64,000 nucleotides of DNA. Origin: Gemmatimonadota bacterium (GTDB lineage: Bacteria > Gemmatimonadota > Gemmatimonadetes > Palauibacterales > Palauibacteraceae). The notes under the pieces were generated by a model. It did no database searches, was not told where the DNA came from, and saw only the letters and a list, made by a program, of their open reading frames with translations. Each line of letters opens with the position of its first letter. Positions within the stretch are counted from its first letter, which is position 1. Below are positions 19,542 through 33,100 of this stretch, piece by piece. The position numbers and the translations under genes are program-made. The stretch spans positions 1,216,001-1,280,000 of the forward strand of contig OZ220691.1 in NCBI GenBank assembly GCA_965116475.1, in the 5' to 3' direction.

Positions 19542-19548
19542 GCGCGAG

Positions 19549-19812: not shown

Positions 19813-19862
19813 GGTATGGCGTCAAGCAGACGATCTGCCTTCGAACCCATCTCCGCAGATTT

Positions 19863-20105
19863 TCACGCCTTGGTCCGACTCTCCCGCGTGGGGCGACGCT
19901 CGCCCTCTACAAGCATCGTCGTGGCAAGCTCAAGCAGTTCGACCGCCTGATCCCGCGAGACCGTAGGGTAGTCGTTGAGGAAATCGTCGAGCCGGTCGCC
20001 CGCTTCGAGATGCTCCATCAGGATGTGCACCGGAACCCTCGTGCCCGCGAACACGGGAGTCCCGCTCACGATGTCGGGGTTCCTGTCGATAACCTTGTCC
20101 GTCAT
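19863..20105 (-). CDS. DUF433-family antitoxin, cognate toxin absent
   Basis: MTDKVIDRNPDIVSGTPVFAGTRVPV...LEAGDRLDDFLNDYPTV. Confidence 0.85.
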   Translation of the reverse strand: MTDKVIDRNPDIVSGTPVFAGTRVPVHILMEHLEAGDRLDDFLNDYPTVSRDQAVELLELATTMLVEGERRPTRESRTKA

Positions 20106-20106
20106 G

Positions 20107-20271
20107 CTAGTCCGAGCGCCGCTCCCTGTCCCTTGTCGCTTCGGCGTCATCCTCCCGCTGTTGCGAGGCGATATCCTCCTCGGTGGTGGCGTCCAGCACC
20201 GCGTAATCGACCCTTCCCTCGGGCCAGCTTCCGGGATCGTCCGGATCAACCGTGATGCGCGTCGTGCTCAT
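20107..20271 (-). pseudogene. Antitoxin N-terminal fragment (54 aa), copy 2
   Basis: Manual translation MSTTRITVDPDDPGSWPEGRVDYAVLDATTEEDIASQQREDDAEATRDRERRSD*. Confidence 0.5.
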
Positions 20272-20297
20272 GTTTCCGACCTCCCTTCCCGTGCTTC
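20137..20297. repeat. 161-bp direct repeat, copy 2
   Basis: About 90% identical to 18425-18585. Confidence 0.9.
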
Positions 20298-20414
20298 CGT
20301 GCCTCCTGCATCTGGTTGCGATACACCATGCTAGCGGGTTGTGTGCCCGGCCGCCCGAAGACGGTGAGGCAGTGGCTGTCGACGTGGTAGGCTACGCTGG
20401 AGGGAGGAAGGAGG

Positions 20415-20513
20415 ATGATCATGAATGACGCAGACGGCGAGTCCGGGCGCTCGATGTTCCGCCCTCCGCACCTGGGGGAACTGATCCGCGAGAACTCGAG
20501 GAAGGGGCGATGA
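20415..20513 (+). pseudogene. HigA antitoxin N-terminal remnant
   Basis: MIMNDADGESGRSMFRPPHLGELIREN then early stop; PPH.GE.IRE is a HigA hallmark; strong GGAGG RBS. Confidence 0.55.
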
Positions 20514-20986
20514 CGGCGAGGGTGCGTTGGTTGCGGCGGATTGCGGAGGGGCTGGCGCGGCGGAAGCGGTCGCAGGTGGAGGCGTGGACCTGCACGCCGT
20601 CGGCGGGTCACCCCGGCGAGACCGTCAAGGACGGATGCGGGATACGGCATCGGTCACGCCAGGCGGCGGACCGCTGCGCCCGACGCTTCACGCGACGCAT
20701 GCGGCGGCCGGTCCCCGGGTTCCGGCGCGGGGCGCGGGACGCGATCCTCCCAGCCGTCCCGGTGCGCATCGACCCCCAAACGCGGCGTCGCCTTCCGCCC
20801 TCAACACACGCCGCGCCCGAGGCAGAGGCGAGGGACGAGACCGCCGACGCCCTCGCGGCCATCGCGCGGCGCGCACGGCAGCAGCGGACGTGCGGGGAGT
20901 GTGGCCACGTCCGAGACGGGGCGCTGGGGGGACGGTGTCCAGCCTGCGGGACCGCCGTGAGCGGATTCGGGGTGGACCACCTGTGA
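20510..20986 (+). CDS. Hypothetical protein with C-terminal rubredoxin-like zinc ribbon
   Basis: CGECGH...CPACG; remainder Arg-rich and unrecognised. Confidence 0.35.
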   Translation: MTARVRWLRRIAEGLARRKRSQVEAWTCTPSAGHPGETVKDGCGIRHRSRQAADRCARRFTRRMRRPVPGFRRGARDAILPAVPVRIDPQTRRRLPPSTHAAPEAEARDETADALAAIARRARQQRTCGECGHVRDGALGGRCPACGTAVSGFGVDHL

Positions 20987-21020
20987 GGGCGTGCCAGTCG
21001 AAACCGGAGACCGACGACCG

Positions 21021-21818
21021 ATGTCGGTAGATCAGATCGTTTCCCGCCTAAAGCTGTTCGGGGCGGAGTCGATCAAGCGGGAGGATGGCGTTTCCGGCAT
21101 CAACGTCGAGCCTGCCGCACGCGACCTCGTGAAGGACCTCGAGCGTTATCCGCCCGCGTTCGTGCTGGCCTGCATCGCGAATCGGCAAACGAAAGCCGAC
21201 ATTGCATGGAGTCTTCCACACGCGATCCGGAAGGCGGCCAGGGGTTTCGACGTCGACACGCTGCTGGGGCTTGAGAAGGATACGTGGACCTCCGTACTCG
21301 CGTCGTCCGGCCACCGGCTGGCCACCCAAATGGAGCAACTGCTACCTGCGGCCATCCGGCACATCCGGGACAAGTACGGCGGGGACGCCTCCCGTATCTG
21401 GGCCGACGGGAGCAGCGGCGCTGCCGTGGCCAGACGGTTCCTTGCCTTCGACGGTGTTGGCCCGAAGATCGCCAACATGGCCGTGAACATCCTGATTCGC
21501 GACTTCCGTATCCAGCTCACCAGGCCCATGCCCGACATCGCGGTCGATACCCACGTCCTGCGCGTGTTCGAGCGGCTGGGCCTTCTCGGCCGGCTGGAAC
21601 ACAGCCAGCTACGCTGGACCAAGGACAAGCAGGCACTCCGGCTCCAGCTGCGCGCTCGCGAACTCAATCCGGAGTGGCCCGGGGAACTCGACTGGCCCGC
21701 ATGGATGGTCGGAAAAACATGGTGTCACGCCGGGCGCGCGCCGGAGTGCGACGGGTGCTGCATGAGATTGGTGTGCCCGAGGGATGGGGTGGCTGCGAAC
21801 TCAACGACAGTAGCGTAA
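21021..21818 (+). CDS. HhH-GPD / endonuclease III-like DNA glycosylase with 4Fe-4S motif
   Basis: FDGVGPKIANM (HhH Lys), AVDTHVLRVFERLG (catalytic Asp), C-x6-C-x2-C-x5-C. Confidence 0.85.
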   Translation: MSVDQIVSRLKLFGAESIKREDGVSGINVEPAARDLVKDLERYPPAFVLACIANRQTKADIAWSLPHAIRKAARGFDVDTLLGLEKDTWTSVLASSGHRLATQMEQLLPAAIRHIRDKYGGDASRIWADGSSGAAVARRFLAFDGVGPKIANMAVNILIRDFRIQLTRPMPDIAVDTHVLRVFERLGLLGRLEHSQLRWTKDKQALRLQLRARELNPEWPGELDWPAWMVGKTWCHAGRAPECDGCCMRLVCPRDGVAANSTTVA

Positions 21819-21888
21819 ACTTGAGCGCGACCGGACGGTGGGCGGGACCTTACTTTACGCCCGCGCCGAACTCAGCGCCGGAGGCCTG

Positions 21889-22101
21889 ATGTCTCTCTCC
21901 GAAGAGAACATGTTCGCGACGCGCCGCCATGTAGAGGCCGCTTGGGATCGTCTCTCGGCGTGCCCATCCCGGAAGCAGATACAGGAACTCAAGTCGGCCA
22001 TCATCGCCGAGCGCGAAGCAACGGATCACTTCATCTACGACGTTCTTCTCGGAGACAGAGGTCGGAGAAAGAGCTCGGCGATAGCTCGGCGAGTACGATA
22101 G
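21889..22101 (+). CDS. Small hypothetical protein
   Basis: GGAGG RBS, helical 70-aa frame between co-oriented genes. Confidence 0.35.
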   Translation: MSLSEENMFATRRHVEAAWDRLSACPSRKQIQELKSAIIAEREATDHFIYDVLLGDRGRRKSSAIARRVR

Positions 22102-22105
22102 AGCA

Positions 22106-22900
22106 TTGCGAAAGCAAACCCACGATAAGATACGGAAGCGTTACGAGGATGCACTGGGTTCCGAATTCGGTGGCTTGTTGTGGCACTTGTGGAACGACCT
22201 TGCCAACGCGCGGCTCGCTTGCGACGAGCTTACCTTTCTGTTCGGTAAAGAGCGCCATGCGGAAGAGCTATCCATTCTCGGAAACGTGTTTACGGCTGAT
22301 ATCTTCCGCACGTTCTCCGAGTCACTGGTCCTCCGTATTGCACGGCTGACGGATCCAGCAACCACTGGGCGACACCGCAACATCACGATCCGCGCGCTCC
22401 CACAGTACCTCGACAGCTACGAGCCTCTGAGGGGGAAAGTAAAAGTCCTCATTGCGGAGGCGCTGGATCGGACAGGATTTGCGCGGCAGCTGCGGAACAA
22501 GCACTTGGCACACCGTGACCTGTTATCCGCCGATTACCCCGAACGCATGAACCTTCTCGCCGAAATACTCCCCAAGAGCGATGCCGCGATAAAGTCGATC
22601 CACGCCGTCCCAGGTAGAGTTGCGGCGGACCTTCTTGACGAGGGTTGGGTGGACATGATTGCCGCACCTCCGCGAGCCGGGAGTCTCACCGCAAACGTCA
22701 GGATTCTCCGTGAGATTGCGCGGACCATTGAAGAGTATATCGAGCCATCGGGCGATGATATCTCAGGCTACCTTGAAGCTGCTTTCGCGGCCCTGGACCC
22801 ACATGGGGTCCGTGAACGGAGTCAAATGCAGCGAATTGCTTTGAATCTGCGTAAGCTCAAGAAGTGGGGAAAGCTAGTAGAGAGAGATCGCGGAAGATAA
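22106..22900 (+). CDS. AbiU2-like HEPN domain protein
   Basis: LVLRIARLTDP...NITI and ARQLRNKHLAHRD (RNKxxAH); lower GC. Confidence 0.7.
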   Translation: MRKQTHDKIRKRYEDALGSEFGGLLWHLWNDLANARLACDELTFLFGKERHAEELSILGNVFTADIFRTFSESLVLRIARLTDPATTGRHRNITIRALPQYLDSYEPLRGKVKVLIAEALDRTGFARQLRNKHLAHRDLLSADYPERMNLLAEILPKSDAAIKSIHAVPGRVAADLLDEGWVDMIAAPPRAGSLTANVRILREIARTIEEYIEPSGDDISGYLEAAFAALDPHGVRERSQMQRIALNLRKLKKWGKLVERDRGR

Positions 22901-23016
22901 TCCCACAAATCGGGGATTGCGGGTCAACGACCGACGTTCCGTCGGCCTTGGGTTGGAGCGGCCGATTCAAAGTAGCATGCCGGTCATCGGAACGGCGGCT
23001 CTTCGACGCTCTCGAT

Positions 23017-23898
23017 CTACTCGTCTGTCGCGGAGGCGATCGCATAGAATCGGGTGGCGATGTCCTCCGCACGGTCCTCCACCATCGCGTCGTGGATCAG
23101 CTTCCGCTTCGCGACAAGACGAACGCATAACCCGAGCCGGTCATCATACTTCACGAGCTGGTAGAGAACGGCTTCACCAAAATCGAGGTAGACCGGGCAC
23201 TTGGCATCGAACCACGTCCGTCTTGGACGGATCCAGTGGAACTGATGATGGCCGCGGTAGTTGGCTTCGACTTGGTCTCGCACGTCATCTCCGTCATGAC
23301 ACAGGACAAGCCCGTCCGGTCGCATGACGGTCTCGATGTTCTCCCGCGTCAGGTCCGCGTAGCGCTTCCGTTCTTCGGAAATCCGCCAGAAAGGTGCAAC
23401 TCTGTGAGTCCACTCCGAGGTATGCTTGAACGCGTCTCGCGGTTGGTGAAACCAGACGATGTCCTCAAACCCGACCGCGTTCGGGTCGGGCAACAACGAT
23501 CCAACGTGGAATCGGTTCCGAAACGACCTTCCGTCCACGATCCAGAAGAGGTTCCCGTAGAAGGCCTCCCGCGATTCCCGCTCTTCATCGGTCATCGTCG
23601 AATGCTGGACTTCGATCACGATCCCAGTCGGGGTCTTGATGTCGGCTCGATGGACCTCGCCGTCCGGAGCCATATGCGTCACCTCCCGGCACTCCTCGGG
23701 AAAGTGGCCCTTCCATTCACGATGCCAAGTCGTTTCGTTCTCCCACCAGGGATCGCAGTTTCGTCGCCCCTTGTGAGCCCAATGGTGCATGACGCGAGGT
23801 CCACACTTCGCGACCATCGGGGAGCCGCAGAGGGGACAAGTGCCCCTTGCACCCTTCTGAGGAGCACTCTTCCGACCGTTCAGAAGAGCGTATTGCAT
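23017..23898 (-). CDS. CoiA-like zinc-finger + PD-(D/E)XK nuclease
   Basis: CPLCG...AKCG...HHWAH...C, ETTWHREWK, HRADI...IEVQHS. Confidence 0.8.
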   Translation of the reverse strand: MQYALLNGRKSAPQKGARGTCPLCGSPMVAKCGPRVMHHWAHKGRRNCDPWWENETTWHREWKGHFPEECREVTHMAPDGEVHRADIKTPTGIVIEVQHSTMTDEERESREAFYGNLFWIVDGRSFRNRFHVGSLLPDPNAVGFEDIVWFHQPRDAFKHTSEWTHRVAPFWRISEERKRYADLTRENIETVMRPDGLVLCHDGDDVRDQVEANYRGHHQFHWIRPRRTWFDAKCPVYLDFGEAVLYQLVKYDDRLGLCVRLVAKRKLIHDAMVEDRAEDIATRFYAIASATDE

Positions 23899-23911
23899 GT
23901 CGGGAAACTAG

Positions 23912-26773
23912 TCAGGTGTCAACCGAAAGATTTCGCGCAAGCAGCTTGTGTAGCGCCTCGTCGTTGGTGATGTCGCTCGGCCAGCCGTAGGCGGCGGCGA
24001 CAGCGGTATCGAGTTGGGCGTGCGCGTCGGCGAGCCATTGCGGTCGGACGTTGTAGAGGTTGGTCAGGGTCCGTTTCTTGAGCGCGGCCGCAGCCTTCTT
24101 GTCACGTGGCACCGGGCGGAGGGGATAGCCGGTCACGGGTTCATCGACCCATTCCACCCACTCGGGCGGATTGAGCCAGCGGTCGCGGAGTTCGACGAGC
24201 CGCCGTGCTGCCGAGGCGATCGCCTGCGCTCGTGGATCCGTGACGTAGTCGCTGGCGGACACGTCGGGTGAGAGTCTCTCCGGGAAGGGGAAGGTCTCGA
24301 AGGTTGTGGTCGGCGTGTAGCGGGGATCGTTCCCCTTGCCGAGCCAAGTGCCCATGCGGAGCGACCATACCTCGTGGAACCGGCTGTGCAGGATCCCGAA
24401 CGTCGTGTCGTCCTCCCGCGCGATCACGATCAGCTGGTGGTCGGGGCAGATCCGGGTGTCGAGCCAAGCGAACAAGCGGTGCTTGGCGACGGTTGGCGTA
24501 ACGATGTACCGCGACAGAGCATCAAGCTCTTGCCACATGTCTTGTCGCGGCCGGAGATGCCGCCACCACTGTCGGCGGTGAACTTCACTCCGGTTCCGCT
24601 GTCGCATCGGGTGGACGTGTTCCTGGGCGTGCTCGAAGGGAGCTTCGTACAGGGCGGCTTCCTCCTTAACCATCGTCCAGCCGAAATCGACGATCCACTT
24701 GTCAGCGGGACGTCGGGTGATTGCCATGCCGTTCATCCAAGGCGCGAGGACGTCGGAGTTGGGTCGGCCGTTGGGGTTCGTGGGCTCGCGAAGCCAATCC
24801 CGGGCGAGGTCGCCGGGAACGTCGAACGGGCCGCCCTTCGTGTCGCCCATGAAGGCCACTCCAGCGTTCCGGGCGAGGCGCCGCGCTTTCGTCAGATCGA
24901 CCCCGGCCTCGCCGCGACGCGCCGTCAGGTCCGTGTAGATCTCGTCCACCGCCTCGCCGTCGAGCCGACGCTCGGGCGCGAGTTCGTCGTCCGCCTGCGA
25001 GAAGCACACCAGCGAGACGCGGACGGCCGCCCCATCGACCACCCACGGCTCATCGCTCCAAGCGTCGAAGATCGGGCTTTCTTCCGTTGCCCTCTCAAGC
25101 GCACGACGGTTGGCGCCGCCCCGGATGGAGTTGGTTGCGACCAGGCCAACTCGATTCGAGGCCCCTCCGCCCAGATGCTCTCCAGCCTTCACGAACCAGT
25201 AGCAGACCAAGTCTGCCTCGCGCGGCACCCGGTCCTTGTACGCGCCGAAGAGGGCCGAGACGTATTCCTCGCCAAGGTTGGTGATGAGCAGCTTGCCGCC
25301 CAGGAACGGCGGGTTGCCGATGATCACATCGGCCTCGGGCCACTCCGGCTCGCCGCCGTCGGGCGTCAGAATCGCATCTCGGCATTCGATCGTCTCGAGC
25401 GGATCGAGCACAGGCTGGCGCGAGCCGGGAAACCCGTTGCGCCGCATCCACTGGATCTCGCCGACCCACACTGAGACGCGGGCAAGTTCCGCCGCATACC
25501 CGTTCAACTCGATCCCCTTCACGTTAGCGGGGCCGACCGAGGGGAAGGCGCGCTGGAGCCCCATCGCCTCGGCTTCCAATTGCACGCGGTGCTCCAGGTC
25601 ATGGAGGGCGTGGAGTGCCAGATAGAGGAAGTTGCCGGAGCCGCAGGCCGGGTCGAGCACCGTGAACTTTCGGAGCCGCTCGAGGAATGAGCCAAGCGAG
25701 TTCTCCGCCTGTCTGCGATGCCGCGTCGCCGCAGCCCGTGATTTGGCTGCGTTCGCGCGCTCGAGGCTGTCGGCGATCCCAGCCTTCGCGGTCTCCCACG
25801 CGGCCAACCACGGGCGAACGATCACGGGATCGATGATCCGCATGATCTTGTCTCGGTCCGTGTAGTGTGCGCCGAGCTGCGAGCGCTTGTCCGGATCGAG
25901 ACCGCGCTCGAAAAGCGTGCCGAGGATCGAGGGGTCGATGTTGGACCAGTCGAGTTCGGACGCCTCCAGCGTCGTCTCGATCTGCTCCTTGTCCATGGGG
26001 AGGGTCGCGTCGTCCTCGAACAGCCCGCCGTTGAACCACTCCACGGTCTCGAACCCGACCCGGCCACCGACGGACATCGCACCGAAAAGATCCCGCGCCA
26101 GTGTGGCGAACTCCTCAGGCTCTCGGCGCGCGTGCTGGAGCATGCGGGTGAACATCTCGCCGGGGAGCAGCCCCACGTCTTCCGCGAACATGCAGAACAC
26201 GAGGCGGTTGACGAAGTGCGCCACCTCCTGCGGAGCGTGTCCGTCTTCGCGGAGCGACTGCGCGAGCTGCGCGAACGTCTGCGCGGCGCGTTCGGTGAGC
26301 GTCTGCCGCGTTTCCCCCGGCCGCAGCCGCTCGGGGTCGGACATCGCCCACTTGAGCTTGTCCCGCACTGCGGCGTCGGCGAGATCGTCCAGCCCGAACT
26401 CCAGCGTCTTGCTCACGGAGTTCGTCCAGTTCGTCCGGATCCGGAACCGGCGCATGTCCGAGACGATCAGAAGCGGCGGGTTCTCGAGCGCGAGCGCGTA
26501 CTGCCTTAGCTGGTCGAACGCTGCGTCGAGGTCGGCGTGCTTCCCCTTGTACTCCCAGGCGAAGCAGTGCCGCTTCCACACGTCCGCCCAGCCTTCCCCG
26601 CCGGAATCCTTCCGCGCCCCCCGCTCGAAGCAGTAGTGCTCACCCTTGGGGTCGGCTTCGGCCGGCGTGGGCTCTCCGAGCAGCCGGCACAGGTCGATGA
26701 AGTGCTCCTGCGCCGCGGAGCGCTCCTTCAATTCCGACGCCTGCCACTTCGCAATAAACTCGTTCGGCGTCAA
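23912..26773 (-). CDS. MmeI-like (type IIL) fused restriction endonuclease / N6-adenine methyltransferase
   Basis: N-terminal ADVWK...WEYK nuclease motif, FNGGLF, GAHYT, LDPACGSGNFL (motif I), GNPPF (motif IV), TRD with RYTPTTTFETFPFP. Confidence 0.9.
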   Translation of the reverse strand: MTPNEFIAKWQASELKERSAAQEHFIDLCRLLGEPTPAEADPKGEHYCFERGARKDSGGEGWADVWKRHCFAWEYKGKHADLDAAFDQLRQYALALENPPLLIVSDMRRFRIRTNWTNSVSKTLEFGLDDLADAAVRDKLKWAMSDPERLRPGETRQTLTERAAQTFAQLAQSLREDGHAPQEVAHFVNRLVFCMFAEDVGLLPGEMFTRMLQHARREPEEFATLARDLFGAMSVGGRVGFETVEWFNGGLFEDDATLPMDKEQIETTLEASELDWSNIDPSILGTLFERGLDPDKRSQLGAHYTDRDKIMRIIDPVIVRPWLAAWETAKAGIADSLERANAAKSRAAATRHRRQAENSLGSFLERLRKFTVLDPACGSGNFLYLALHALHDLEHRVQLEAEAMGLQRAFPSVGPANVKGIELNGYAAELARVSVWVGEIQWMRRNGFPGSRQPVLDPLETIECRDAILTPDGGEPEWPEADVIIGNPPFLGGKLLITNLGEEYVSALFGAYKDRVPREADLVCYWFVKAGEHLGGGASNRVGLVATNSIRGGANRRALERATEESPIFDAWSDEPWVVDGAAVRVSLVCFSQADDELAPERRLDGEAVDEIYTDLTARRGEAGVDLTKARRLARNAGVAFMGDTKGGPFDVPGDLARDWLREPTNPNGRPNSDVLAPWMNGMAITRRPADKWIVDFGWTMVKEEAALYEAPFEHAQEHVHPMRQRNRSEVHRRQWWRHLRPRQDMWQELDALSRYIVTPTVAKHRLFAWLDTRICPDHQLIVIAREDDTTFGILHSRFHEVWSLRMGTWLGKGNDPRYTPTTTFETFPFPERLSPDVSASDYVTDPRAQAIASAARRLVELRDRWLNPPEWVEWVDEPVTGYPLRPVPRDKKAAAALKKRTLTNLYNVRPQWLADAHAQLDTAVAAAYGWPSDITNDEALHKLLARNLSVDT

Positions 26774-27294
26774 GGCGTCCCCTCGTCCTCCGAGAACAGA
26801 TCGGTTTGACCCAGCCCCGGTGGCAACTCCAGATCGCGGGTCCGTACGACGGGAATTCCAGCCACCTCACCCAATCGATATAAGCCTCGATCGTCCGAGT
26901 ATATCGTCGTGGCTCCGCGCGCCTTCGCGATGGCTACGATCTGACGGTCGAACTTCAACTTCGCCCAGGTCGCAGGCCCCTCCCGCGGCGGCGTTGGCAC
27001 CATTAGCGCCAGCTCGATTGCGGCCCGCTGGTCGAAGGGTTCGATGCTGAAAACCGCGCGTCGATTCAGGAGGTTCACGATACGCCGCGCATCCGTCGGA
27101 TCCCTCTTCATGAGCACTTCCGAGAGGACGGGCGTTGGTATCGCGATGGTCTCGCGGGGCTTCGCGTCCAGCCTCTCGATCAGGTACTCCACGCGCTCTC
27201 GGGCGTGAGGAAGGGGTTTCCCTTCCGCGTCGGTCGGCCCCGGAGTGTCGGGCTGGAGGAACAGGAGCAGCGTGGTGGCGTCAATCACCACCAT
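26770..27294 (-). CDS. PIN-domain protein
   Basis: VVIDATTL, PTPVLSEVL, KFDRQIVAIA, IYSDD; TTGA overlap with the RM gene. Confidence 0.8.
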   Translation of the reverse strand: MVVIDATTLLLFLQPDTPGPTDAEGKPLPHARERVEYLIERLDAKPRETIAIPTPVLSEVLMKRDPTDARRIVNLLNRRAVFSIEPFDQRAAIELALMVPTPPREGPATWAKLKFDRQIVAIAKARGATTIYSDDRGLYRLGEVAGIPVVRTRDLELPPGLGQTDLFSEDEGTP

Positions 27295-28063
27295 TTTGTT
27301 CCGGCCCTTGTCGGATGCGTTCCAGATCCCGGTAATCGTCTTCGGTCCAGTCTCCGGCTACCGCCCGAAGTTCCCGGAGAGCTTCGGACACCTTCGTACT
27401 CTCGACCGGCTCGAACGCGTCGATGCTGAAGCGTTGCACGTTCCAGCGGCCTTTGGCATCGCGCAGCCAGGAACCCTTCCCCACCAAACGGACGGGCTCG
27501 AAGAGATGGTGCGCCAGCATCTTCGCGACGTCCCTACTCGCGCTGCATCCGGCGATGGGTTCGCCATCGGACTCGATGAGGATGGGAATCCTGTCGCCGG
27601 TTCCGCCCACTCGAATGACGATACCGGAGATTCGCCCGCGCTCGCGCACCAACGGGTAGGGGTCCTCCGCGTCATCGGCACCCGGGAATTCGAGGACCTT
27701 GTGATCGTTGTCTCGTTCCCTCAACTCGGCGCTAGCCCGGTCCTCTCGCAGATAGCCGTCCAGACTCCGATAGGCTTCCTGAGCATCGCGCGGCGCTTCG
27801 CCACGGCCGACGGCTTGCAAACGGGAACGGACGTTCCGCACGGCCGTTGGCTCGATCTCATGCACGAGCGCAGTGCTACTCTCCTCAATGCCCACCAGAT
27901 GGACGCGGTTTCGCTCTCCGAGGATGTCCGCGAGCTTCGCCAGGTACTGGGCCAGGCGCGCCATCGGTAGGGTACGCGGCGTGAACGCGTCGATCGTGAA
28001 CCGATACTCCGCGCGCTCGCGGCTCGGCTTTTGTTCCTCGCGTTCCGGCGTTTCCGGGTTCAC
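27281..28063 (-). CDS. Hypothetical 260-aa protein, PIN partner
   Basis: Globular composition, FTPRTLPMARLAQYL..LA..LG...VH motif, beta-rich C-half; 14-nt overlap with PIN gene. Confidence 0.7.
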   Translation of the reverse strand: MNPETPEREEQKPSRERAEYRFTIDAFTPRTLPMARLAQYLAKLADILGERNRVHLVGIEESSTALVHEIEPTAVRNVRSRLQAVGRGEAPRDAQEAYRSLDGYLREDRASAELRERDNDHKVLEFPGADDAEDPYPLVRERGRISGIVIRVGGTGDRIPILIESDGEPIAGCSASRDVAKMLAHHLFEPVRLVGKGSWLRDAKGRWNVQRFSIDAFEPVESTKVSEALRELRAVAGDWTEDDYRDLERIRQGPEQNGGD

Positions 28064-28278
28064 GCTCGCCTCATGTTTGCACGTTACGTTTGCTGAGAAT
28101 ACGGCAGCATCGGGTCAGAGTATACGAAAAAGACGAAGATCGGGTCCAGAAATGCCGGCACCCGCTGCGACGGGAGGTGGCGGCGCGTTCCTGCGGGAAC
28201 GTTTCTGCGCGGCATGTGGATCCGTGGCCGCTGGCGCGGCCGACGAGGGAGCATGCAACTGCCGCATGTTGACAGGGC

Positions 28279-28294
28279 CGGGGCGCCCGGATTT
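28279..28294 (-). repeat. 16-bp duplicate of the tRNA-Pro(CGG) 3' end (att-like scar)
   Basis: cggggcgcccggattt at 28279-28294 is identical to 28397-28412. Confidence 0.7.
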
Positions 28295-28395
28295 CGCTAC
28301 GACCGCCTTCGGCGGCCCGCGTAATCCTGGGGGGCAGCTTGGACGACCAGGCAGACTTAACAGTACGCCCAGCCAACATGACTGGGCGGGCGGAA

Positions 28396-28469
28396 TCGGG
28401 GCGCCCGGATTTGAACCGGGGACCTCTGCGTCCCGAACGCAGCGCTCTACCGGACTGAGCCACGCCCCG
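28396..28469 (-). tRNA. tRNA-Pro(CGG)
   Basis: Anticodon arm CTGCG TTCGGGA CGCAG; GGTTCAAATCC T-arm. Confidence 0.95.
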
Positions 28470-28540
28470 AGGGGTACTGCGGACCGCGCGTTGGGCGCGG
28501 GGGCCGGGCTCGCGAACGAGATGGCGAGCCGGCGACGAAG

Positions 28541-28613
28541 AGCGGGTGACCGGATTCGAACCGGCGACCTCAACCTTGGCAAGGTTGCGCTCTACCAACT
28601 GAGCTACACCCGC
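28541..28613 (-). tRNA. tRNA-Gly(GCC)
   Basis: Anticodon arm CAACC TTGCCAA GGTTG. Confidence 0.95.
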
Positions 28614-28674
28614 GTGTGCTGCTCCCTCCAGGCCTGCGGCCCGTTGGGCCGGCCGAGCCGGAGGGGTCCTTCAG

Positions 28675-28746
28675 AGCCACCGGTCGGATTTGAACCGACG
28701 ACCGCCGCATTACGAATGCGGTGCTCTACCCCTGAGCTACGGTGGC
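28675..28746 (-). tRNA. tRNA-Thr(CGT)
   Basis: Anticodon arm CCGCA TTCGTAA TGCGG. Confidence 0.95.
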
Positions 28747-28820
28747 GAGCCGTCGGCCGCTACCCGTGGCGGCCCTGGCGAGAAGGCTCGCCGGGGCTGC
28801 GGGGGTGGACGCGACGGGAG

Positions 28821-28894
28821 TGGAGCCGGCGGGATTTGAACCCGCGACCTCTTGAGTGCGATTCAAGCGCTCTCCCAAACTGAGCTACGGCCCC
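28821..28894 (-). tRNA. tRNA-Ala(CGC)
   Basis: Anticodon arm CTTGA ATCGCAC TCAAG; G3:U70 pair. Confidence 0.95.
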
Positions 28895-28916
28895 TCGCTC
28901 GACACGCTTTTCGGAA

Positions 28917-28991
28917 CGGGGCTGACGGGATTTGAACCCGCGACCTCCGGTGTGACAGACCGGCACTCTAACCAGACTGAGCTACAGCCCC
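28917..28991 (-). tRNA. tRNA-Asp(GTC)
   Basis: Anticodon arm CCGGT CTGTCAC ACCGG. Confidence 0.95.
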
Positions 28992-29008
28992 CTGCGGCGG
29001 CGTTTCGA

Positions 29009-29082
<74 letters not shown>

Positions 29083-29134
29083 TCCGAAAGACACGACGAG
29101 CGGGCCCCGGGTGGGAGCCCGCTCGGACGGACAT

Positions 29135-29163
29135 ATGCTAAAGGAACGGCCCGAATCGGTCAA
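29135..29163 (-). promoter_or_regulatory. Sigma70-like promoter of the tRNA cluster
   Basis: TTGACC-N17-TAGCAT upstream of tRNA-Val. Confidence 0.65.
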
Positions 29164-29301
29164 CCTTGGCGGGCGCCGGATCGGCGGTCCCGGGGGACGG
29201 TTGCATCCACCGGAGCGGGCTTTACCTTGTTCGCGACCCGCGCCTCCGCCGGCGGAGGCTGTCGGGCGACTCACATCGTCGATTCCCCCTCAGAGAGGCG
29301 G

Positions 29302-30111
29302 ATGAAGATAAGCTCTCGCGCGGTCGCGGGCGTCCTTGCCGCGGCCCTCGGCGCCACCGCTCTGGCGCTGTACCGGCCTTCAACCGGCGAACTCGAGCTC
29401 GCGGCCGCGAGCCTCGATCCGTCCTCCTTCCTTCACATCCAGGAGAGCGCGGATCCGCAGGCGGCGGGCGAGGGCGAGACGGCTGCCGCATCGGCCCAGT
29501 TCGCCGAGGAGCAGGATCTCGCGACGATGCCCGCCCAGTGGCGCGCGATCTACGATCACGAGAACGCGAGCCGCGGGCCCGAGCAGCCCATCCCGTTCAA
29601 CCACCGCTTCCACGTCACGGATCTCCAGATCGACTGCATGTACTGCCATGTCGGGACGGAGCGGTCGGTGTCGGGCGTCGTGCCGTCGCTCGAGGTGTGC
29701 ATGGGGTGCCACCGCATCGCGGGCACGGGGCTGCCGCCGGTCGAGGAATTGCGTCAGTACGAAGCGCGCGGCGAGCCCATCGAGTGGGAGTGGGTGTACA
29801 AGCTGCCGGAGTTCGTGCAGTTCAGCCACAAGGCCCACGTGCGGAACCTCGAGTGCCAGGATTGCCACGGCCCGGTGGAGGAGATGGATCGGGTCTACCA
29901 GTGGGCGCCGCTGACGATGGGCTGGTGCCTCGAATGCCACCGGCAGGCTCCCTTCGACGGCGATGTCGCGACCGACCACACGCTGGCGCGGGACAACCCG
30001 CCGCCGCAGGCGCCGGCGCCTCGTCAGCCGGAAGGGTTCTACCCGAGGGACATCGACACGGACTACGGGCGGACCCGGGCTCCCACGGATTGCGCGGCAT
30101 GTCACTACTAA
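29302..30111 (+). CDS. actA: Alternative complex III pentaheme cytochrome c subunit
   Basis: Five CxxCH (CMYCH, CMGCH, CQDCH, CLECH, CAACH), QPIPFNH, PLTMGWC. Confidence 0.9.
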   Translation: MKISSRAVAGVLAAALGATALALYRPSTGELELAAASLDPSSFLHIQESADPQAAGEGETAAASAQFAEEQDLATMPAQWRAIYDHENASRGPEQPIPFNHRFHVTDLQIDCMYCHVGTERSVSGVVPSLEVCMGCHRIAGTGLPPVEELRQYEARGEPIEWEWVYKLPEFVQFSHKAHVRNLECQDCHGPVEEMDRVYQWAPLTMGWCLECHRQAPFDGDVATDHTLARDNPPPQAPAPRQPEGFYPRDIDTDYGRTRAPTDCAACHY

Positions 30112-33100
30112 ACGGGGGCAACGGCGGCTGCGGCTGCGAGGGGAGTTGCTCCGGCGGCGCCGCCCCTGAAGCCGACGCGCTGAACGGCGCCGCCGCGAAC
30201 GGGACGGGGACCTCCCGCCGCCGCTTCCTCAAGGTGCTGGGGACTTCCGGGGCCGGGGCCGCGACGCTGGCGGCGTGCGGCCCGCCGGACTTCGGGGACA
30301 AGCTCATCCCCAGTCTCGTCGAGGAAGAGGGGATCACGCCGGGCGTTTCCGACACCTACGCGACCGTGTTGGCGGATGCGGGGCCGGAACCGGTCGCCGT
30401 CCATGCGCAGGTGCGCGACGGCCGCGTCCTCGGCCTGAGCCCCAACAACCGGTTCGGCGGAGGCACGAGCGGCCTGTCCTCGCTCACGCACTCGACGCTG
30501 CAGGACCTCTACGATCCGGATCGCGTGAGCCAGCCGCTGCAGCGCAATCCGTCCACGGAGGAGGGGGCGCCTCCCTTCCAGTTCGCGAACTGGGACGATG
30601 CGACGGCCGCGCTGACCAATGCGGTGCGCGTCGGCGGCGGGGTGCTCCTGACGGGCCGGGTCACGGGCACCACGGGCCGGTTCATCGCCGACTGGGCGCG
30701 CGTGATGGGAGTCGAACACATCGCGTGGGAACCGTTCTCGAACGGCGCGCTGGCGGGCGGGACCGCGGACGTGAGCGGGGGCGCGGGCATGCCGCGCTAC
30801 GACCTCTCCTCGGCCGACCGGATCGCCTGCTTCGGGGCCGACTTCCTGGGCACCTGGCTCGCCCCGACGCAGTTGTCGGCGGGCTTCGCGGCGGCGCGCG
30901 ACATCGAGGCCCACCACCACGCGAAGTTCACCTTCGTCGGCCCGAGGCTCTCCCTGACGGGCGCCAACGCGGACGAATGGATCGAAGCGCGGGCCGGGAC
31001 CGAGGGCGCCGTGGCGCTGGCCGTCGCCGGCGTCGTTGCGGCGGCGAGGGGCGTCGCGCTTCCGGCCGGCATGTCCGCCGTGTCGCCGGAGTCGGCCGCG
31101 GAGGCGGCGGGCGTCCCGGCCGACGCGATCCGTGCGCTGGGTGAGGAACTGGCCGCCGCCGAGAACGCGGTCGCAGTCCCGCCGGGGCTCGAGTCGCAGG
31201 GAGCCGCCGCGCGGCAGGCGCATCAGGCGGTCGCGGCGCTCAACGAGGTGCTGGGAGCCGTGGGCACCCGGGTGTTCCCGGGGGGCGGCGCGCCCGAAGG
31301 CGCAGCGGCCAGCTTCGCGGACATGCAGGCGCTGATCGGTCGCATGCGGGCCGGCCAGGTGCGGACGCTCATCGTATCCGGCTGCAACCCCGCCTACGCG
31401 CTCCCCGCCGCCGCGGGGTTCGACGAGGCCCTGGCCAACGTGACGAACACCGTCGCGATCACACCGCACCTCGACGAGACGGCGTCGGCCTGCGGCTGGG
31501 TGCTGCCCTGCCACCACGCGCTCGAGTCGTGGTGCGACGCGGACCTGGCGGACGGCGCGATGGCGCTCGGACAGCCGCTCATGCACCCGGTGTTCGACAC
31601 GCGCCAGCGCGAGGACCTGCTGCTGGACGTCGCAAACGCGGCGGGACAGGGCGGCGCCTTCAGCGGGACGGACTACGCGACCGTGCTGCGGAACACCTGG
31701 ACCGAGCGGCTCGGCGACCACGCCGCATGGCTCGACGCGCTCCGGCGCGGCGGCGCCTCGGCGGCCGCCTGGGGGGACGACGACGGTGCGGAGGCCGGCG
31801 AGGACGGTGCGCCCGCGGGCGGCGCCGGCGGCTTCGCGCTTCCGCAGGCGCCCTCCGGCACGCAGCTCGTCGTCTACCCGACGGCCCAGTTCTACGATGG
31901 CCGGGGCGCGAACCGCTCCTGGATGCAGGAACAGCCCGACGCGATCACGAAGGTCGTGTGGAACTCGTGGGTCGAGATGCACCGCGACATGGCGGACGAA
32001 CTCGGCGTGGAGCGCGGCGACATCGTCCGCGTCGAGTCCGCCCACGGCGCCATCGAGGCGCCGGTCTACGTCTACCGCGGCATCCGCCCGGATACGGTGG
32101 CGATCCCGCTCGGACAGGGACACACGGAGTACGGCCGCTACGCGCGGAACCGCGGCGTGAACCCGCTGAACCTCCTCGCGGCGGACGCGGACCCCGGCTC
32201 CGGCGCGCTGGCCTACGCCGGGACGGCGGTCACCGTCGCGGCCACCGGGGAGACCGCCCGGCTCGTCGTCACGCAGGGGTCCACCGACGACCTCGACCGC
32301 GAGATCGTCCACGCCATGAACGTCGAGGACGCGCTGCACGAGATCGAGGCGCACGAGATCGACCTCGTCGAGATGGTCGAGGCCGCGTGGGACTCCGATC
32401 CGAACAGCCCGTACCGCTGGGGCATGACCATCGACCTCAACGCCTGCACCGGCTGCGGCGCCTGCGTCACCTCCTGCTACTCCGAGAACAACATCCCCAC
32501 CGTGGGCGAGGAGCAGGCGGCGCTCCGGCGGGAGATGTCGTGGATGCGGATCCACCGCTTCGAGGAGGAGACGGAAGACGGCGGCTTCCAGACGGTGCAG
32601 CAGCCGATGCTGTGCCAGCACTGCGGCGACGCGCCGTGCGAGCCGGTGTGCCCGGTCTACGCGACGTACCACAGCCCCGAGGGGCTCAACGTCCAGGTCT
32701 ACAACCGCTGCGTCGGCACGCGGTACTGCGCGAACAACTGCCCCTACAAGGTCCGCCGCTTCAACTGGTTCAACCATGACGCGCGCGGCCGTGGCGACGG
32801 AGGAGCCTTCGCCTGGCCCCTGAACCTCCAGCTCAACCCGGACATCACCGTCCGCGAGGTGGGGGTGATGGAGAAGTGCACGATGTGCGTGCACCGGATC
32901 AACAAGGCGAAGATCGACGCCAAGGACGAAGGGCGGATGGTGAGAGACGGCGAGGTGATGACGGCCTGCCAGTCCAGCTGCCCGTCGAACGCGATCACCT
33001 TCGGCAACCTCAAGGATCCGGAGAGCGAGGTCTCCCGCAAGGCCAAGAGCGCCCGCGGCTACCACGCGCTCGGAGAACTCGGCGTGCGCCCCGCGATCAC

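What the first reader, a model, noticed from the sequence alone, without database searches (positions are those of the whole stretch)
23017..28063. Coupled four-gene operon: unknown 260 aa, PIN, MmeI-like RM, CoiA-like nuclease
Seen: four co-oriented genes with a 14-nt overlap (27281-27294), a TTGA stop/start overlap (26770-26773) and a 13-nt gap, starting just downstream of the tRNA cluster. The PIN partner is far larger than a typical VapB antitoxin and has a beta-rich C-half. Established: type IIL enzymes are stand-alone RM systems, and some RM systems are guarded by toxic nucleases (PrrC with type I RM). Inference: a candidate undescribed defence system in which the 260-aa/PIN pair backs up or guards the RM enzyme and a Zn-finger PD-(D/E)XK nuclease is a further effector.
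Basis: partly seen in the sequence, partly recalled or inferred. Interest (0 to 1): 0.75.

Follow-up and report, generated by a model that had tools for sequence, protein, structure and literature searches.

The report
Mobile PIN toxin pair beside restriction enzyme
The four genes are real, but they are three separate mobile pieces rather than one system: a widespread, undescribed two-gene PIN nuclease module, an ordinary MmeI-type restriction enzyme and a stray CoiA-like gene, with the PIN module turning up next to this class of restriction enzyme oddly often.

Summary
All four minus-strand genes and their junctions are as described. They are not one conserved system.

- **The pair.** The 260-aa gene and the PIN gene form a discrete two-gene module. 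A PIN relative follows the 260-aa gene in 69 of 80 related loci. Start and stop overlap or lie 0-7 nt apart in 60 of 60 scorable loci.
- **Spread.** The family has 2211 representative clusters and no Pfam, NCBIfam or PADLOC model. It also sits on plasmids and next to the cI repressor of Pseudomonas phages.
- **The partner.** It folds as a ferredoxin-like domain, an OB fold and two C-terminal helices.
- **The restriction enzyme.** The MmeI-like gene is intact but separable. A 91%-identical copy of the pair in a sister genome ends exactly at the PIN stop.
- **The CoiA-like gene.** It is absent from all 80 loci.
- **The unexpected part.** Type IIG/IIL enzymes of four families flank the pair in 10 of 81 loci, at least five separate times, and appear nowhere else in the flanks.

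Best reading: a new toxin-antitoxin-like or abortive-infection module living in defence islands. A functional tie to type IIG enzymes remains possible.

The parts
28395..29082 (-). Cluster of six tRNA genes (Pro-CGG, Gly, Thr, Ala, Asp, Val). It forms the conserved upstream border of the variable island.
   Evidence: ARAGORN and Rfam. The flank is syntenic with L002 up to window position 36000.
28279..28294 (.). Exact 16-nt copy of the 3' end of tRNA-Pro(CGG) (28397-28412). It looks like an att-type scar of an earlier integration at this tRNA.
   Evidence: (family D15) and 72: 2 matches in the window against 0.18 expected; 2 of 100 shuffles reach 2.
28119..28148 (-). Promoter-like site (TGGACC, 18-nt spacer, TATACT) 56 nt upstream of the first gene. 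It lies inside the block that moves with the pair.
   Evidence: consensus match only, 1 found against 0.6 expected. Homology with the L001 copy of the pair starts at 28150.
27281..28063 (-). 260-aa partner protein ('A260'). It consists of an N-terminal ferredoxin-like domain, an OB-fold barrel and two C-terminal helices with an invariant Arg251. It is the presumed antitoxin or regulatory/RNA-binding subunit.
   Evidence: No Pfam, NCBIfam or PADLOC match.
26770..27294 (-). 174-aa PIN-domain nuclease with its acidic residues intact (D5, E59 and D116 invariant; D135 nearly so). It is the presumed toxin or effector.
   Evidence: It follows A260 in 69 of 80 loci.
23912..26773 (-). 953-aa MmeI-family type IIL/IIG restriction-modification enzyme. 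It is a separate module, co-transcribed here with the pair.
   Evidence: aligned to MmeI (5hr4), with the D-x9-E-x-K, DPACGSGNF and GNPPF motifs conserved. Separability is shown.
23017..23898 (-). 293-aa CoiA-like protein with an N-terminal Zn finger. The D...EVQ nuclease-like motif was read by eye only. It is a lineage-specific addition and not part of the module.
   Evidence: Absent from 80 of 80 loci and from the syntenic L002. A stand-alone gene on plasmids.
22106..22900 (+). HEPN_AbiU2-like gene, convergent with the operon. It is part of the same variable island.
   Evidence: PF18734, E = 1.1e-7, 31.9 bits.

Best explanation
The locus is a stack of independent mobile modules in a hypervariable island next to a tRNA cluster.

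**Module 1: the pair.** The 260-aa gene and the PIN gene, with their own promoter region, form an autonomous bicistronic unit built like a type II toxin-antitoxin module.
- The PIN protein is a Mg-dependent RNase with an intact active site. This is inferred from the fold family and the conserved acidic residues.
- The upstream protein is made with it by translational coupling.
- The upstream protein most likely holds the PIN inactive by direct binding, probably through its C-terminal helices and invariant Arg251. This is inferred by analogy with VapB-VapC and is not shown.
- Unlike known VapB antitoxins, the partner has no RHH, AbrB or HTH DNA-binding domain. It carries a ferredoxin-like domain and an OB fold, which are typical single-stranded nucleic-acid binders.
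- It may therefore also sense or present a nucleic acid (inferred).
- Release or activation of the PIN would stop growth. That would stabilise the element carrying it, exclude phages, or both.

**Module 2: the restriction enzyme.** An intact MmeI-family type IIL enzyme has been joined to the 3' end of the pair, so all three genes are read from one transcript here.

**Module 3: the CoiA-like gene.** It is an unrelated single-gene cassette.
For: **The pair is a conserved, discrete unit.**
- 212 of 221 candidate stretches in species-representative genomes encode a relative of the 260-aa protein, across Gemmatimonadota, Alpha-, Beta- and Gammaproteobacteria, Acidobacteriota and Binatota. The best 80 were kept as loci.
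- A PIN relative follows in 69 of the 80 loci; 67 of these are directly adjacent.
- The junction overlaps or is at most 7 nt apart in 60 of 60 scorable loci.
- All 7 plasmid-collection records with this PIN also have an A260-like gene upstream.

**The pair is discrete from its neighbours.**
- The L001 copy (90.7% nt identity) matches the window only at 28150-26765. That is the promoter region through the PIN stop.
- In L001 it is followed by an Avs4-like gene instead of MmeI.

**The pair is mobile, like an addiction or defence module.**
- On the 21-kb plasmid pSM30-2 it sits between XerD and Soj.
- It lies directly after the cI repressor in Pseudomonas phage Pacha_bin_1, with an equal match in phage Ostro. 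It lies after a cI/LexA-like repressor in Proteus.
- Transposase or integrase genes flank it in 14 of 80 loci.
- One genome holds three copies (L001, L004, and the truncated L069).

**The PIN active site is kept.** D5, E59 and D116 are invariant and D135 is conserved in at least 90% of 36 sequences.

**The decay pattern fits a toxin.** The PIN is absent in 10 loci and visibly disrupted in about 10, while the partner stays full length. The loci were chosen by the partner, so this count is biased.

**The partner's fold.**
- Whole-protein model: pLDDT 80.7. It gives 52 Foldseek hits at E <= 1e-3. All 40 listed rows are OB-fold proteins: ExoVII, LysRS N-domain, SSB, RPA, Stn1.
- N-domain model: pLDDT 88.5, a beta-alpha-beta-beta-alpha-alpha-beta-beta layout.

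**The MmeI gene is intact.**

**The CoiA-like gene is not part of it.** It is missing from 80 of 80 loci.
Against: - No experiment or complex prediction shows that the two proteins bind, or that the PIN is toxic.
- The partner is three times the size of a usual VapB and lacks a DNA-binding domain. A non-antitoxin role (sensor, or substrate-presenting subunit) fits as well.
- Type IIG/IIL genes sit beside the pair in 10 of 81 loci. The A260 tree needs at least 5 to 7 changes of that label. None of the 55 further large ORFs in the same flanks is of that type. This argues against pure independence of modules 1 and 2.
- In the window and in L057 the type IIG gene is joined in operon fashion (an overlap and a 13-nt gap).
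- Only the best 80 of 212 loci could be inspected.
Confidence: 0.6

Rival explanations
1. **Accessory of type IIG/IIL enzymes.** The pair is a functional accessory of these restriction enzymes. It could be a guard that fires the PIN when restriction is blocked, a back-up abortive-infection layer, or a post-transcriptional regulator of the enzyme's expression. On this reading the window shows the fully fused form.
For: - Type IIG-like genes lie within about 2 kb of the pair in the window and in L002, L023, L039, L041, L057, L058, L059, L070 and L071. They are directly adjacent in eight of these ten, L058 and L070 being the exceptions.
- They belong to four PADLOC families (PDLC03627, 03613, 03630, 03610). 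They occur in three arrangements: downstream co-directional, upstream co-directional and convergent.
- The label needs 7 changes on the A260 tree, at least 5 of them forced by well-supported branches.
- 0 of 55 other ORFs of 550 aa or more in the same +-8 kb flanks is type IIG-like.
- Operon-style joints occur in the window (TTGA overlap) and in L057 (13-nt gap).
- Matelska et al. 2017 (PMC5499597, section 17, read) saw PIN genes coupled to type I RM subunits but none with type II. This link is therefore not in that survey.
Against: - 70 of 80 loci have no type IIG neighbour.
- The pair stands alone on plasmids and prophages.
- L001 shows the same pair at 91% identity without MmeI.
- In 3 of the 10 IIG-adjacent loci the PIN is lost or broken (L023, L039, L070).
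- In several the IIG gene is itself split (L041, L059, L058).
- The neighbouring IIG enzymes are not one family, so a specific protein-protein interface is unlikely.
- No matched control family was counted, so the baseline rate of IIG adjacency for island-borne toxin-antitoxin genes is unknown.
Confidence: 0.2
2. **Autonomous defence system that is not a toxin-antitoxin.** The 260-aa protein is a required sensor or RNA-presenting subunit rather than an antidote. This would resemble the validated DS-5 system, in which a PIN nuclease needs a larger partner and deleting the partner does not unleash toxicity.
For: - The partner has two nucleic-acid-binding-type folds and no antitoxin-type DNA-binding domain.
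- It is highly conserved along its whole length: 20 invariant columns in 27 sequences. This is unlike the fast-evolving tails of many antitoxins.
- 19 of 80 loci have known defence genes within about 2.5 kb. These include Avs4, DISARM DrmA/B, Druantia DruE, Dsr1, CBASS, Hma, HEC-01, PDC-S06, AbiV, TIR and RM.
- It occupies the cI-adjacent moron position in phages.
- DS-5 precedent: PMC13092281, passages read with 'find'.
Against: - The gene order (partner first, PIN second), the translational coupling, the plasmid position next to partition genes, and loss of the PIN with the partner retained all fit a classical antidote-toxin pair as well or better.
- The partner has no DUF5830 match, so it is not DS-5 itself.
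Confidence: 0.17
3. **The first reader's model.** All four genes form one integrated defence system, with the CoiA-like Zn-finger nuclease as a further effector.
For: All four genes are co-oriented and tightly spaced. No terminator-like site lies between them, and the only promoter-like site on that strand is upstream of the first gene.
Against: - The CoiA-like gene is absent from 80 of 80 related loci.
- Synteny with L002, which has A-PIN-MmeI at about 92% nt identity, ends at 23942, just inside the 3' end of MmeI.
- The family (905 clusters at E <= 0.001) occurs as a stand-alone gene. Examples are an Agrobacterium plasmid next to an IS5 element and a Vibrio cassette array.
- Neither PADLOC nor NCBIfam places it in any system.
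Confidence: 0.03

Closest known systems
VapBC-type (PIN) type II toxin-antitoxin modules
   Same: Bicistronic, with the partner gene first and the PIN second. Start and stop overlap. The PIN acidic residues are conserved. The module is mobile, multi-copy, and found on plasmids and prophages.
   Different: - The partner is 245-260 aa, not about 70-90 aa (the usual size is recalled).
- It has no RHH, AbrB, HTH or Phd domain.
- Its fold is ferredoxin-like plus OB.
- Neutralisation and autoregulation are untested.
MmeI (PDB 5hr4), type IIL restriction-modification enzymes
   Same: The 953-aa gene has the MmeI domain order. It aligns to MmeI at E = 2.7e-42, with the nuclease D-x9-E-x-K, motif I and NPPF conserved.
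   Different: Low overall identity. Recognition site, cleavage distance and methylation are unknown. Here it is fused into the operon of a PIN pair.
PIN toxin-antitoxin genes transcriptionally coupled to type I RM subunits (Matelska et al. 2017, PMC5499597, section 17 read)
   Same: A PIN module joined to a restriction-modification gene, in an arrangement not conserved between close relatives.
   Different: That survey reports type I contexts and explicitly none with type II. Here the neighbours are single-chain type IIG/IIL enzymes, and the adjacency recurs in at least five lineages. The paper's Supplementary Figure S7 was not looked at.
PrrC-EcoprrI (anticodon nuclease kept silent by a type Ic RM enzyme; recalled, no call)
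   Same: A latent RNase gene embedded in an RM operon.
   Different: PrrC is a single ABC-ATPase/nuclease protein with no separate partner. The pair here has no such domains and mostly occurs without any RM gene.
DefensePredictor DS-5: PIN nuclease plus a DUF5830/AcrIF4-like partner (PMC13092281, passages read)
   Same: A two-gene system of a PIN effector plus a larger partner of no classical antitoxin type.
   Different: The partner families are unrelated: no DUF5830 match. DS-5 was tested; this pair was not.
Type II toxin-antitoxin module that modulates a Hachiman system (PMC13064477, search listing and abstract start only)
   Same: A precedent for a toxin-antitoxin pair embedded in and tuning another defence system.
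   Different: A different defence system and a different toxin-antitoxin family. The paper was not read beyond the listing.

Membership tests
VapBC-type type II toxin-antitoxin | Toxin is a PIN domain with the conserved acidic active-site residues | tested here: met
   PF01850, E = 3e-7. D5, E59 and D116 are invariant and D135 is conserved in at least 90% of 36 sequences.
VapBC-type type II toxin-antitoxin | Antitoxin gene directly upstream and translationally coupled | tested here: met
   14-nt overlap in the window. 40 overlaps and 20 gaps of 0-7 nt in 60 of 60 scorable loci.
VapBC-type type II toxin-antitoxin | Small antitoxin with an N-terminal DNA-binding domain (RHH, AbrB, HTH or Phd) | tested here: not met
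   260 aa. 0 Pfam, NCBIfam or PADLOC families at E <= 0.1. The folds are ferredoxin-like plus OB.
VapBC-type type II toxin-antitoxin | Antitoxin binds and neutralises the toxin; the toxin alone arrests growth | not testable with these tools
No bench data exist.
MmeI-family type IIL/IIG RM enzyme | Single chain with an N-terminal nuclease, helical spacer, gamma-class N6-adenine MTase, TRD and C-terminal domain | tested here: met
   MmeI_N, _hel and _Mtase score above their cut-offs. _TRD (26.8) and _C (20.6) fall just below 27. PADLOC PDLC03627 scores 1009 bits.
MmeI-family type IIL/IIG RM enzyme | Catalytic motifs: D-x9-E-x-K nuclease, motif I (FxGxG-type) and motif IV NPPF | tested here: met
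   The alignment to MmeI 5hr4_C pairs D64/E74/K76, DPACGSGNF and GNPPF with the MmeI residues.
MmeI-family type IIL/IIG RM enzyme | Cuts about 20/18 nt from an asymmetric site and methylates one strand | not testable with these tools
   Needs an enzyme assay and a SMRT methylome.
CoiA family | CoiA N-terminal zinc-finger domain | tested here: inconclusive
   PF25164 scores 26.4 bits against a cut-off of 26.3. Many homologues carry PF25164 and the name CoiA.
CoiA family | CoiA-type nuclease domain | tested here: not met
   No Pfam or NCBIfam nuclease-domain model at E <= 0.1. No PDB sequence match at E <= 1. The D85...E96-V-Q98 motif was read by eye only.
RM-guard of the PrrC/EcoprrI kind | Guard gene regularly embedded in or next to the RM operon it guards | tested here: not met
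   A type IIG gene lies beside the pair in 10 of 81 loci and is absent in 70 of 80.
RM-guard of the PrrC/EcoprrI kind | Nuclease kept latent by contact with the RM enzyme and released by an anti-restriction factor | not testable with these tools
   Needs binding and phage experiments.
Any named defence system in PADLOC-DB 2.0 | A profile match to a component of a described or candidate system | tested here: not met
   0 families for the 260-aa protein, the PIN and the CoiA-like protein at E <= 0.1. Only the MmeI-like gene matches.
DefensePredictor DS-5 | The partner carries DUF5830 and an AcrIF4-like domain | tested here: not met
   The 260-aa protein has no Pfam match. The DS-5 description comes from PMC13092281.

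The most novel reading that the evidence does not exclude
The 260-aa OB-fold protein and its PIN nuclease are a new abortive-infection module with a specific working relationship to single-chain type IIG/IIL restriction enzymes. The OB/ferredoxin-like partner would read a nucleic-acid signal that appears when such an enzyme is evaded or inhibited, or would tune the enzyme's mRNA. It would then release the PIN. This would explain why enzymes of four different type IIG families have been captured next to the pair at least five separate times.
Probability: 0.2. Interest if true: 0.8.

Novelty: new variant of a known kind. Interest (0 to 1): 0.5.

Why it matters
**A family worth characterising.**
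- It has 2211 clusters at 50% identity and spans several phyla, plasmids and temperate phages.
- It has no model in Pfam, NCBIfam or PADLOC.
- It was not found in the four literature searches run here.
- It would add a new antitoxin or sensor architecture (ferredoxin-like plus OB fold) to PIN-based systems.

**A cautionary example.** Tight operon-like packing in a defence island can be a recent stacking of independent modules.

**A cheap test of a wider idea.** If the recurrent adjacency to type IIG/IIL enzymes survives a controlled census, it would be the first reported specific link between a PIN module and type II restriction enzymes. That contrasts with the 2017 PIN survey, which found none. 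It would give a concrete case for how single-chain RM enzymes are backed up or regulated.

Tried and rejected
- **PDB sequence searches.**
  - The A260 profile gave one chance-level hit, E = 0.62.
  - The PIN profile gave none at E <= 0.01.
  - The CoiA-like protein gave none at E <= 1.
- **Foldseek on the N-terminal domain alone.** 0 hits at E <= 1e-3. The best hits (Pop5, ACT, cyclase and dimeric ferredoxin-like proteins, E = 7e-3 to 0.1) say only 'ferredoxin-like'.
- **ESM Atlas.** Only unnamed 'hypothetical protein' clusters.
- **Island borders by att repeats.** Only a 16-nt tRNA-Pro repeat 118 nt from the tRNA was found. No distal att site and no integrase appeared among the ORFs examined at 14000-30000.
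- **Rfam on 22000-29300.** Nothing but the six tRNAs.
- **Alternative effectors.** I looked for other effectors replacing the PIN behind the partner, in the loci without a PIN. Only unrelated or spurious ORFs turned up: HTH capH, DUF1501, an MFS antisense ORF and others. There is no sign of effector swapping.
- **Fused forms.** None of the 150 listed hits of the all-lengths profile search is long enough to hold both proteins; the longest is 342 aa.
- **Considered and rejected.**
  - A260 is not a mis-called ORF. Its GC3 is 0.73, and its 44 homologue clusters include full-length ones.
  - The antisense ORF at 27245-27970 is an artefact of the high G+C content.
- **Not checked.**
  - Metagenome and viral contig collections (closed).
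  - The 132 of 212 loci that were not returned.
  - PHROGs.
  - Supplements of the papers cited.
Full report
**1. What is in the sequence**

The window has about 69% G+C. Relatives found later point to Candidatus Palauibacter, a genus of Gemmatimonadota.

On the minus strand there are four ORFs with a good coding signal. GC3 is 0.72-0.84 against GC2 of 0.44-0.47:
- 27281-28063: 260 aa, GTG start, called 'A260' below.
- 26770-27294: 174 aa.
- 23912-26773: 953 aa, TTG start.
- 23017-23898: 293 aa.

Six tRNA genes lie 331 nt upstream on the same strand.

**2. What the four proteins are**

*PIN.* It matches PF01850 at E = 3e-7. In an alignment of 36 orthologues D5, E59 and D116 are invariant and D135 is nearly so. 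These are the usual PIN acidic residues.

*MmeI-like enzyme.*
- All five MmeI Pfam domains match. The TRD and C-terminal domains fall just below their cut-offs.
- It scores 1009 bits on PADLOC's type IIG model PDLC03627.
- It aligns to MmeI (5hr4) at E = 2.7e-42. The nuclease D-x9-E-x-K, motif I (DPACGSGNF) and NPPF are conserved.
- It looks like an intact type IIL enzyme.

*CoiA-like protein.*
- It has a borderline CoiA_N zinc-finger match: 26.4 bits against a cut-off of 26.3.
- 905 homologous clusters exist, and the few that carry a source name are mostly called CoiA.
- No nuclease-domain model matched it. The D...EVQ motif is my reading by eye.

*A260.*
- It matches nothing in Pfam, NCBIfam or PADLOC and nothing in the PDB by sequence.
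- The ESM Atlas shows only unnamed clusters.

**3. The fold of A260**

An AlphaFold model built from 27 homologues has a mean pLDDT of 80.7. It has three parts:
- an alpha/beta domain at residues 18-126;
- a five-stranded barrel at residues 139-219;
- two helices at residues 225-252.

Foldseek against the PDB gives 52 hits at E <= 1e-3. All 40 listed rows are OB folds: the ExoVII large subunit, the LysRS N-domain, SSB, RPA and Stn1. TM-scores normalised to the small targets are 0.4-0.5.

The N-terminal domain was modelled alone from 63 sequences, giving pLDDT 88.5 and pTM 0.82. Its order of elements is beta-alpha-beta-beta-alpha-alpha-beta-beta. It finds only weak ferredoxin-like matches (Pop5, ACT, cyclase domains; best E = 6.6e-3). 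I take that as 'ferredoxin-like, otherwise inconclusive'.

Invariant residues include the PMARLA-x-Y motif, VH, the GG of the barrel, R192, R201, W207, F217 and R251 near the C-terminus.

**4. The pair is a conserved, autonomous module**

*Family size.*
- The word-indexed search found 44 clusters, all unnamed or 'hypothetical'.
- The exhaustive profile search found 2211 representatives at E <= 1e-3 and 604 at E <= 1e-30.
- Among the 150 listed, most are 241-265 aa (range 194-342), and none is long enough to be a fusion with the PIN.

*Genome loci.* In species-representative genomes, 212 of 221 candidate stretches encode a relative, and the best 80 were returned. tblastn with the four window proteins gave these counts:
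- PIN in 69 of 80 loci, 67 of them directly downstream;
- MmeI-like in 6 of 80;
- CoiA-like in 0 of 80.

*PIN status*:
- 51 intact and adjacent by a strict rule. About six more are intact ORFs with shorter alignments.
- About 10 visibly frameshifted, truncated or split by an insertion. In L006 an IS1595 element splits the PIN.
- 2 displaced by an insertion.
- 10 absent.
- 1 locus with no room on the contig.

*The junction.* Where it can be scored (60 loci), the two genes overlap in 40. Of these, 15 have the same 14-nt overlap, 8 overlap by 4 nt and 15 by 1 nt. In the other 20 they are 0-7 nt apart.

*No third conserved gene.* Clustering all 1177 greedy ORFs of the loci found no third family shared by more than 11 loci. 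The 11-locus cluster is antisense ORFs of A260. The next is an IS1595 transposase.

**5. The pair is separable from MmeI and from the CoiA-like gene**

These results come from blastn of the window against the loci.
- L002 (Ca. Palauibacter ramosifaciens) is syntenic at 91.7% identity from window position 36000 down to 23942. That is just inside the 3' end of MmeI, and homology stops there. The CoiA-like gene and everything beyond it differ.
- L001 (another Palauibacter) matches only 28150-26765 at 90.7% identity. This block starts at the promoter-like site (28148-28119) and ends at the PIN stop codon.
- In L001 the pair is followed by an Avs4-like STAND gene. It is preceded by a T5orf172 gene, an AAA_21 ATPase gene and a transposase.
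- The same genome has a second copy next to ccmE/ccmF (L004), with a frameshifted PIN. It also has a truncated copy still attached to the tRNA cluster (L069).

The region downstream of tRNA-Pro is therefore a site of repeated rearrangement. A 16-nt copy of the tRNA-Pro 3' end at 28279-28294 fits that picture.

**6. Other carriers**

*Plasmids.* tblastn finds A260 in 6 of 72,556 plasmid records, each with the PIN behind it.
- On the 21-kb plasmid pSM30-2 the pair sits between XerD and the Soj partition gene.
- In a Methylobacterium plasmid it sits near a recombinase gene, and in a Cupriavidus plasmid directly downstream of an IS5 transposase. PGAP calls both genes hypothetical.
- The seventh PIN hit is a Proteus mirabilis record. 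It has a 232-aa A260-like ORF upstream and a cI/LexA-like repressor before that.

*Phages.* Two Pseudomonas phages, Pacha_bin_1 and Ostro, match A260. In Pacha_bin_1, the one I inspected, the pair lies directly after the cI repressor.
- The A260-like ORF (246 aa) is mis-annotated there.
- The 168-aa ORF after it aligns to the window PIN at E = 5e-11.

**7. Neighbourhoods**

I scanned these sets against Pfam:
- the two nearest greedy-called ORFs of at least 80 aa on each side of the pair in all 80 loci (128 + 133 proteins);
- selected cluster representatives (32 proteins);
- all 55 remaining ORFs of 550 aa or more in the +-8 kb flanks, plus three extra ORFs (58 proteins).

29 proteins were also scanned against PADLOC.

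*Defence genes.* Known defence genes lie within about 2.5 kb of the pair in 19 of 80 loci:

| Locus | Defence neighbour |
|---|---|
| L001 | Avs4 |
| L014 | DISARM DrmA + DrmB |
| L020 | Druantia DruE |
| L019 | PDC-S06 + HmaA |
| L016 | HEC-01A + HmaB |
| L047 | Dsr1 |
| L012 | CBASS with capH (also PglZ) |
| L009 | MTase + type III Res + GmrSD |
| L028 | AbiV |
| L070 | TIR |
| L052 | type I S subunit |
| nine loci (list below) | type IIG enzymes |

*Mobile elements.* Transposase or integrase genes flank the pair in 14 loci.

*The rest.* The remainder are ordinary housekeeping contexts.

*The window's own island.* It also holds a MazE/AbrB gene followed by an unscanned 143-aa ORF that I read as PIN-like, plus DUF3800, DUF433 and HEPN_AbiU2 genes. 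PADLOC matches none of these.

**8. The unexpected part: type IIG neighbours**

Large fused methyltransferase-nuclease genes lie next to the pair in the following loci:

| Locus or loci | PADLOC family | Arrangement |
|---|---|---|
| Window and L002 | PDLC03627 (MmeI type) | downstream, overlapping |
| L071, L058, L070 (Polaromonas) | PDLC03627 | convergent; 22 nt apart in L071; a TIR gene lies between in L070 |
| L057 | PDLC03613 / DrmMI-like | downstream, 13-nt gap |
| L059 | PDLC03613 / DrmMI-like, split in two ORFs | upstream |
| L023 and L039 | PDLC03630 | upstream |
| L041 | PDLC03610 plus a Type_ISP_C ORF | upstream |

- That is 10 of 81 loci.
- The A260 tree has 79 loci plus the window, with the fragment L069 left out. 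It was built with the quick method.
- On that tree the label needs 7 changes, at least 5 of them forced by branches with SH-aLRT of 95 or more.
- None of the 55 other large ORFs in the flanks is of this type. The enzymes are therefore concentrated at the position next to the pair and are not merely somewhere in the same island.

The 2017 PIN survey (PMC5499597, section 17, read) reports PIN genes coupled to type I RM subunits. It states that none was seen with type II systems.

*Caveats.*
- I have no matched control family.
- Only 80 of 212 loci were visible.
- ORFs under 550 aa beyond the second neighbour were not scanned.
- In three of the ten loci the PIN is lost or broken.
- In three the type IIG gene is split.

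**9. How it most likely works**

*Shown.*
- Gene order, coupling, conservation and mobility of the pair.
- An intact PIN active site.
- The OB and ferredoxin-like folds of the partner.
- Separability from MmeI and from the CoiA-like gene.

*Inferred.*
- The PIN is an RNase toxin.
- The partner binds and silences it, probably with its C-terminal helices and Arg251. I recall, without a call, that arginines in VapB tails plug the VapC site.
- The OB and ferredoxin-like domains bind a single-stranded nucleic acid, either as a trigger or as a substrate handle.
- Activation stops growth. That would serve plasmid or prophage maintenance, phage exclusion, or both.

In this genome the MmeI-type enzyme has been joined to the 3' end of the pair and is probably read from the same transcript. 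The CoiA-like gene is a further, unrelated cassette. On plasmids it stands alone, once in a Vibrio cassette array.

**10. Rivals**

- **(a) A specific working link between the pair and type IIG enzymes.** Section 8 supports it. The 70 loci without such an enzyme, and the plasmid and phage copies, speak against it being obligatory.
- **(b) A two-gene defence system that is not a toxin-antitoxin.** Here the partner is a needed sensor, as in DS-5 of DefensePredictor (PMC13092281, passages read). The partner's folds and high conservation favour this. The classical operon layout and the PIN-first decay pattern favour a toxin-antitoxin. The decay count is biased because the loci were chosen by the partner.
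It is contradicted by the absence of the CoiA-like gene everywhere else.

**11. Novelty and literature**

No library model covers the partner. Four literature searches were run:
- PIN domain, OB-fold, antitoxin, defense island (at least 3 of the 4);
- MmeI, PIN domain, toxin-antitoxin (at least 2 of the 3);
- type IIG, toxin-antitoxin, defense island, PIN (at least 3 of the 4);
- VapC + OB-fold + antitoxin.

Judged from titles and abstract starts, none returned a paper describing such a pair. The last search returned 2 papers, both unrelated by title. This is not proof of absence, because subscription journals and supplements were not searched.

I file the pair as a new variant of a known kind: a PIN toxin-antitoxin or abortive-infection module with a new partner architecture. 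The MmeI-like and CoiA-like genes are ordinary members of known families.

**12. What stayed open**

- Toxicity, the RNA target, any phage phenotype and the methylation motif.
- The true rate of type IIG adjacency across the whole family against a control.
- The metagenome and viral contig collections, which were closed.

Noticed in passing
L005 6848-7822, L006 5626-6600 and 7725-8771, L010 6997-7953, L011 5874-6824 and 6948-7928, L013 7339-7968, L043 6860-7798: An IS1595-family transposase (DDE_Tnp_IS1595 plus a zinc ribbon) lies directly upstream of the 260-aa gene, on the same strand, in six loci from different lineages. A 87-aa fragment in L055 (5576-5839) that clustered with these transposases was not scanned. 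In L006 a second copy splits the PIN gene. The pair may travel as passenger cargo of such elements, or may be a preferred target for them.
   Followed up: partly
window 28279-28294 and 28397-28412: An exact 16-nt direct repeat of the 3' end of tRNA-Pro(CGG) lies 118 nt downstream of the tRNA. It looks like an att-type scar. No integrase gene and no distal repeat were found.
   Followed up: partly
window 27977-28003 and 27407-27433 (also 27028-27054): The 260-aa gene has an internal repeat. 'RFTIDAFTP' (residues 21-29, the first strand of the N-domain) recurs as 'RFSIDAFEP' (residues 211-219, the last strand of the OB barrel), with 81% identity over 27 nt of DNA. The PIN has a similar 'VFSIEPFDQ'. 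The meaning is unknown.
   Followed up: no
window 18425-18585 and 20137-20297: A 161-nt direct repeat (90% identity) links the 5' part of a 100-aa ORF (18383-18685) to the 5' part of the DUF433 gene (19863-20249). This suggests a duplicated leader or N-terminal segment within the island.
   Followed up: no
window 16969-22900: The island also holds a MazE/AbrB antitoxin gene (17397-17714), followed by an unscanned 143-aa ORF (16969-17400) that I read as PIN-like. It further holds a DUF3800 gene (18720-19574), a DUF433 gene (19863-20249), an unassigned 275-aa gene (20991-21818) and a HEPN_AbiU2 gene (22106-22900, + strand). None matches PADLOC.
   Followed up: partly
L081 5028-5768 (Pseudomonas phage Pacha_bin_1, record 13144-13884): The phage record annotates a minus-strand ORF and a short plus-strand ORF where a 246-aa homologue of the 260-aa protein is encoded, right after the cI repressor and before a 168-aa PIN gene. 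This is probably a mis-annotation.
   Followed up: yes
L001, L004, L069 (one Ca. Palauibacter genome): Three copies of the module occur in one genome. One is intact beside an Avs4-like gene. One, next to ccmE/ccmF, has a frameshifted PIN. One is truncated after residue 88 and still attached to the tRNA cluster.
   Followed up: partly
window 29166-33188 and 29227-30111: Upstream of the tRNA cluster, on the + strand, lie a multihaem cytochrome c7-type gene and a large ORF. The counterpart of that ORF in L002 has molybdopterin-binding and 4Fe-4S domains. This is core metabolism and marks the conserved flank.
   Followed up: no
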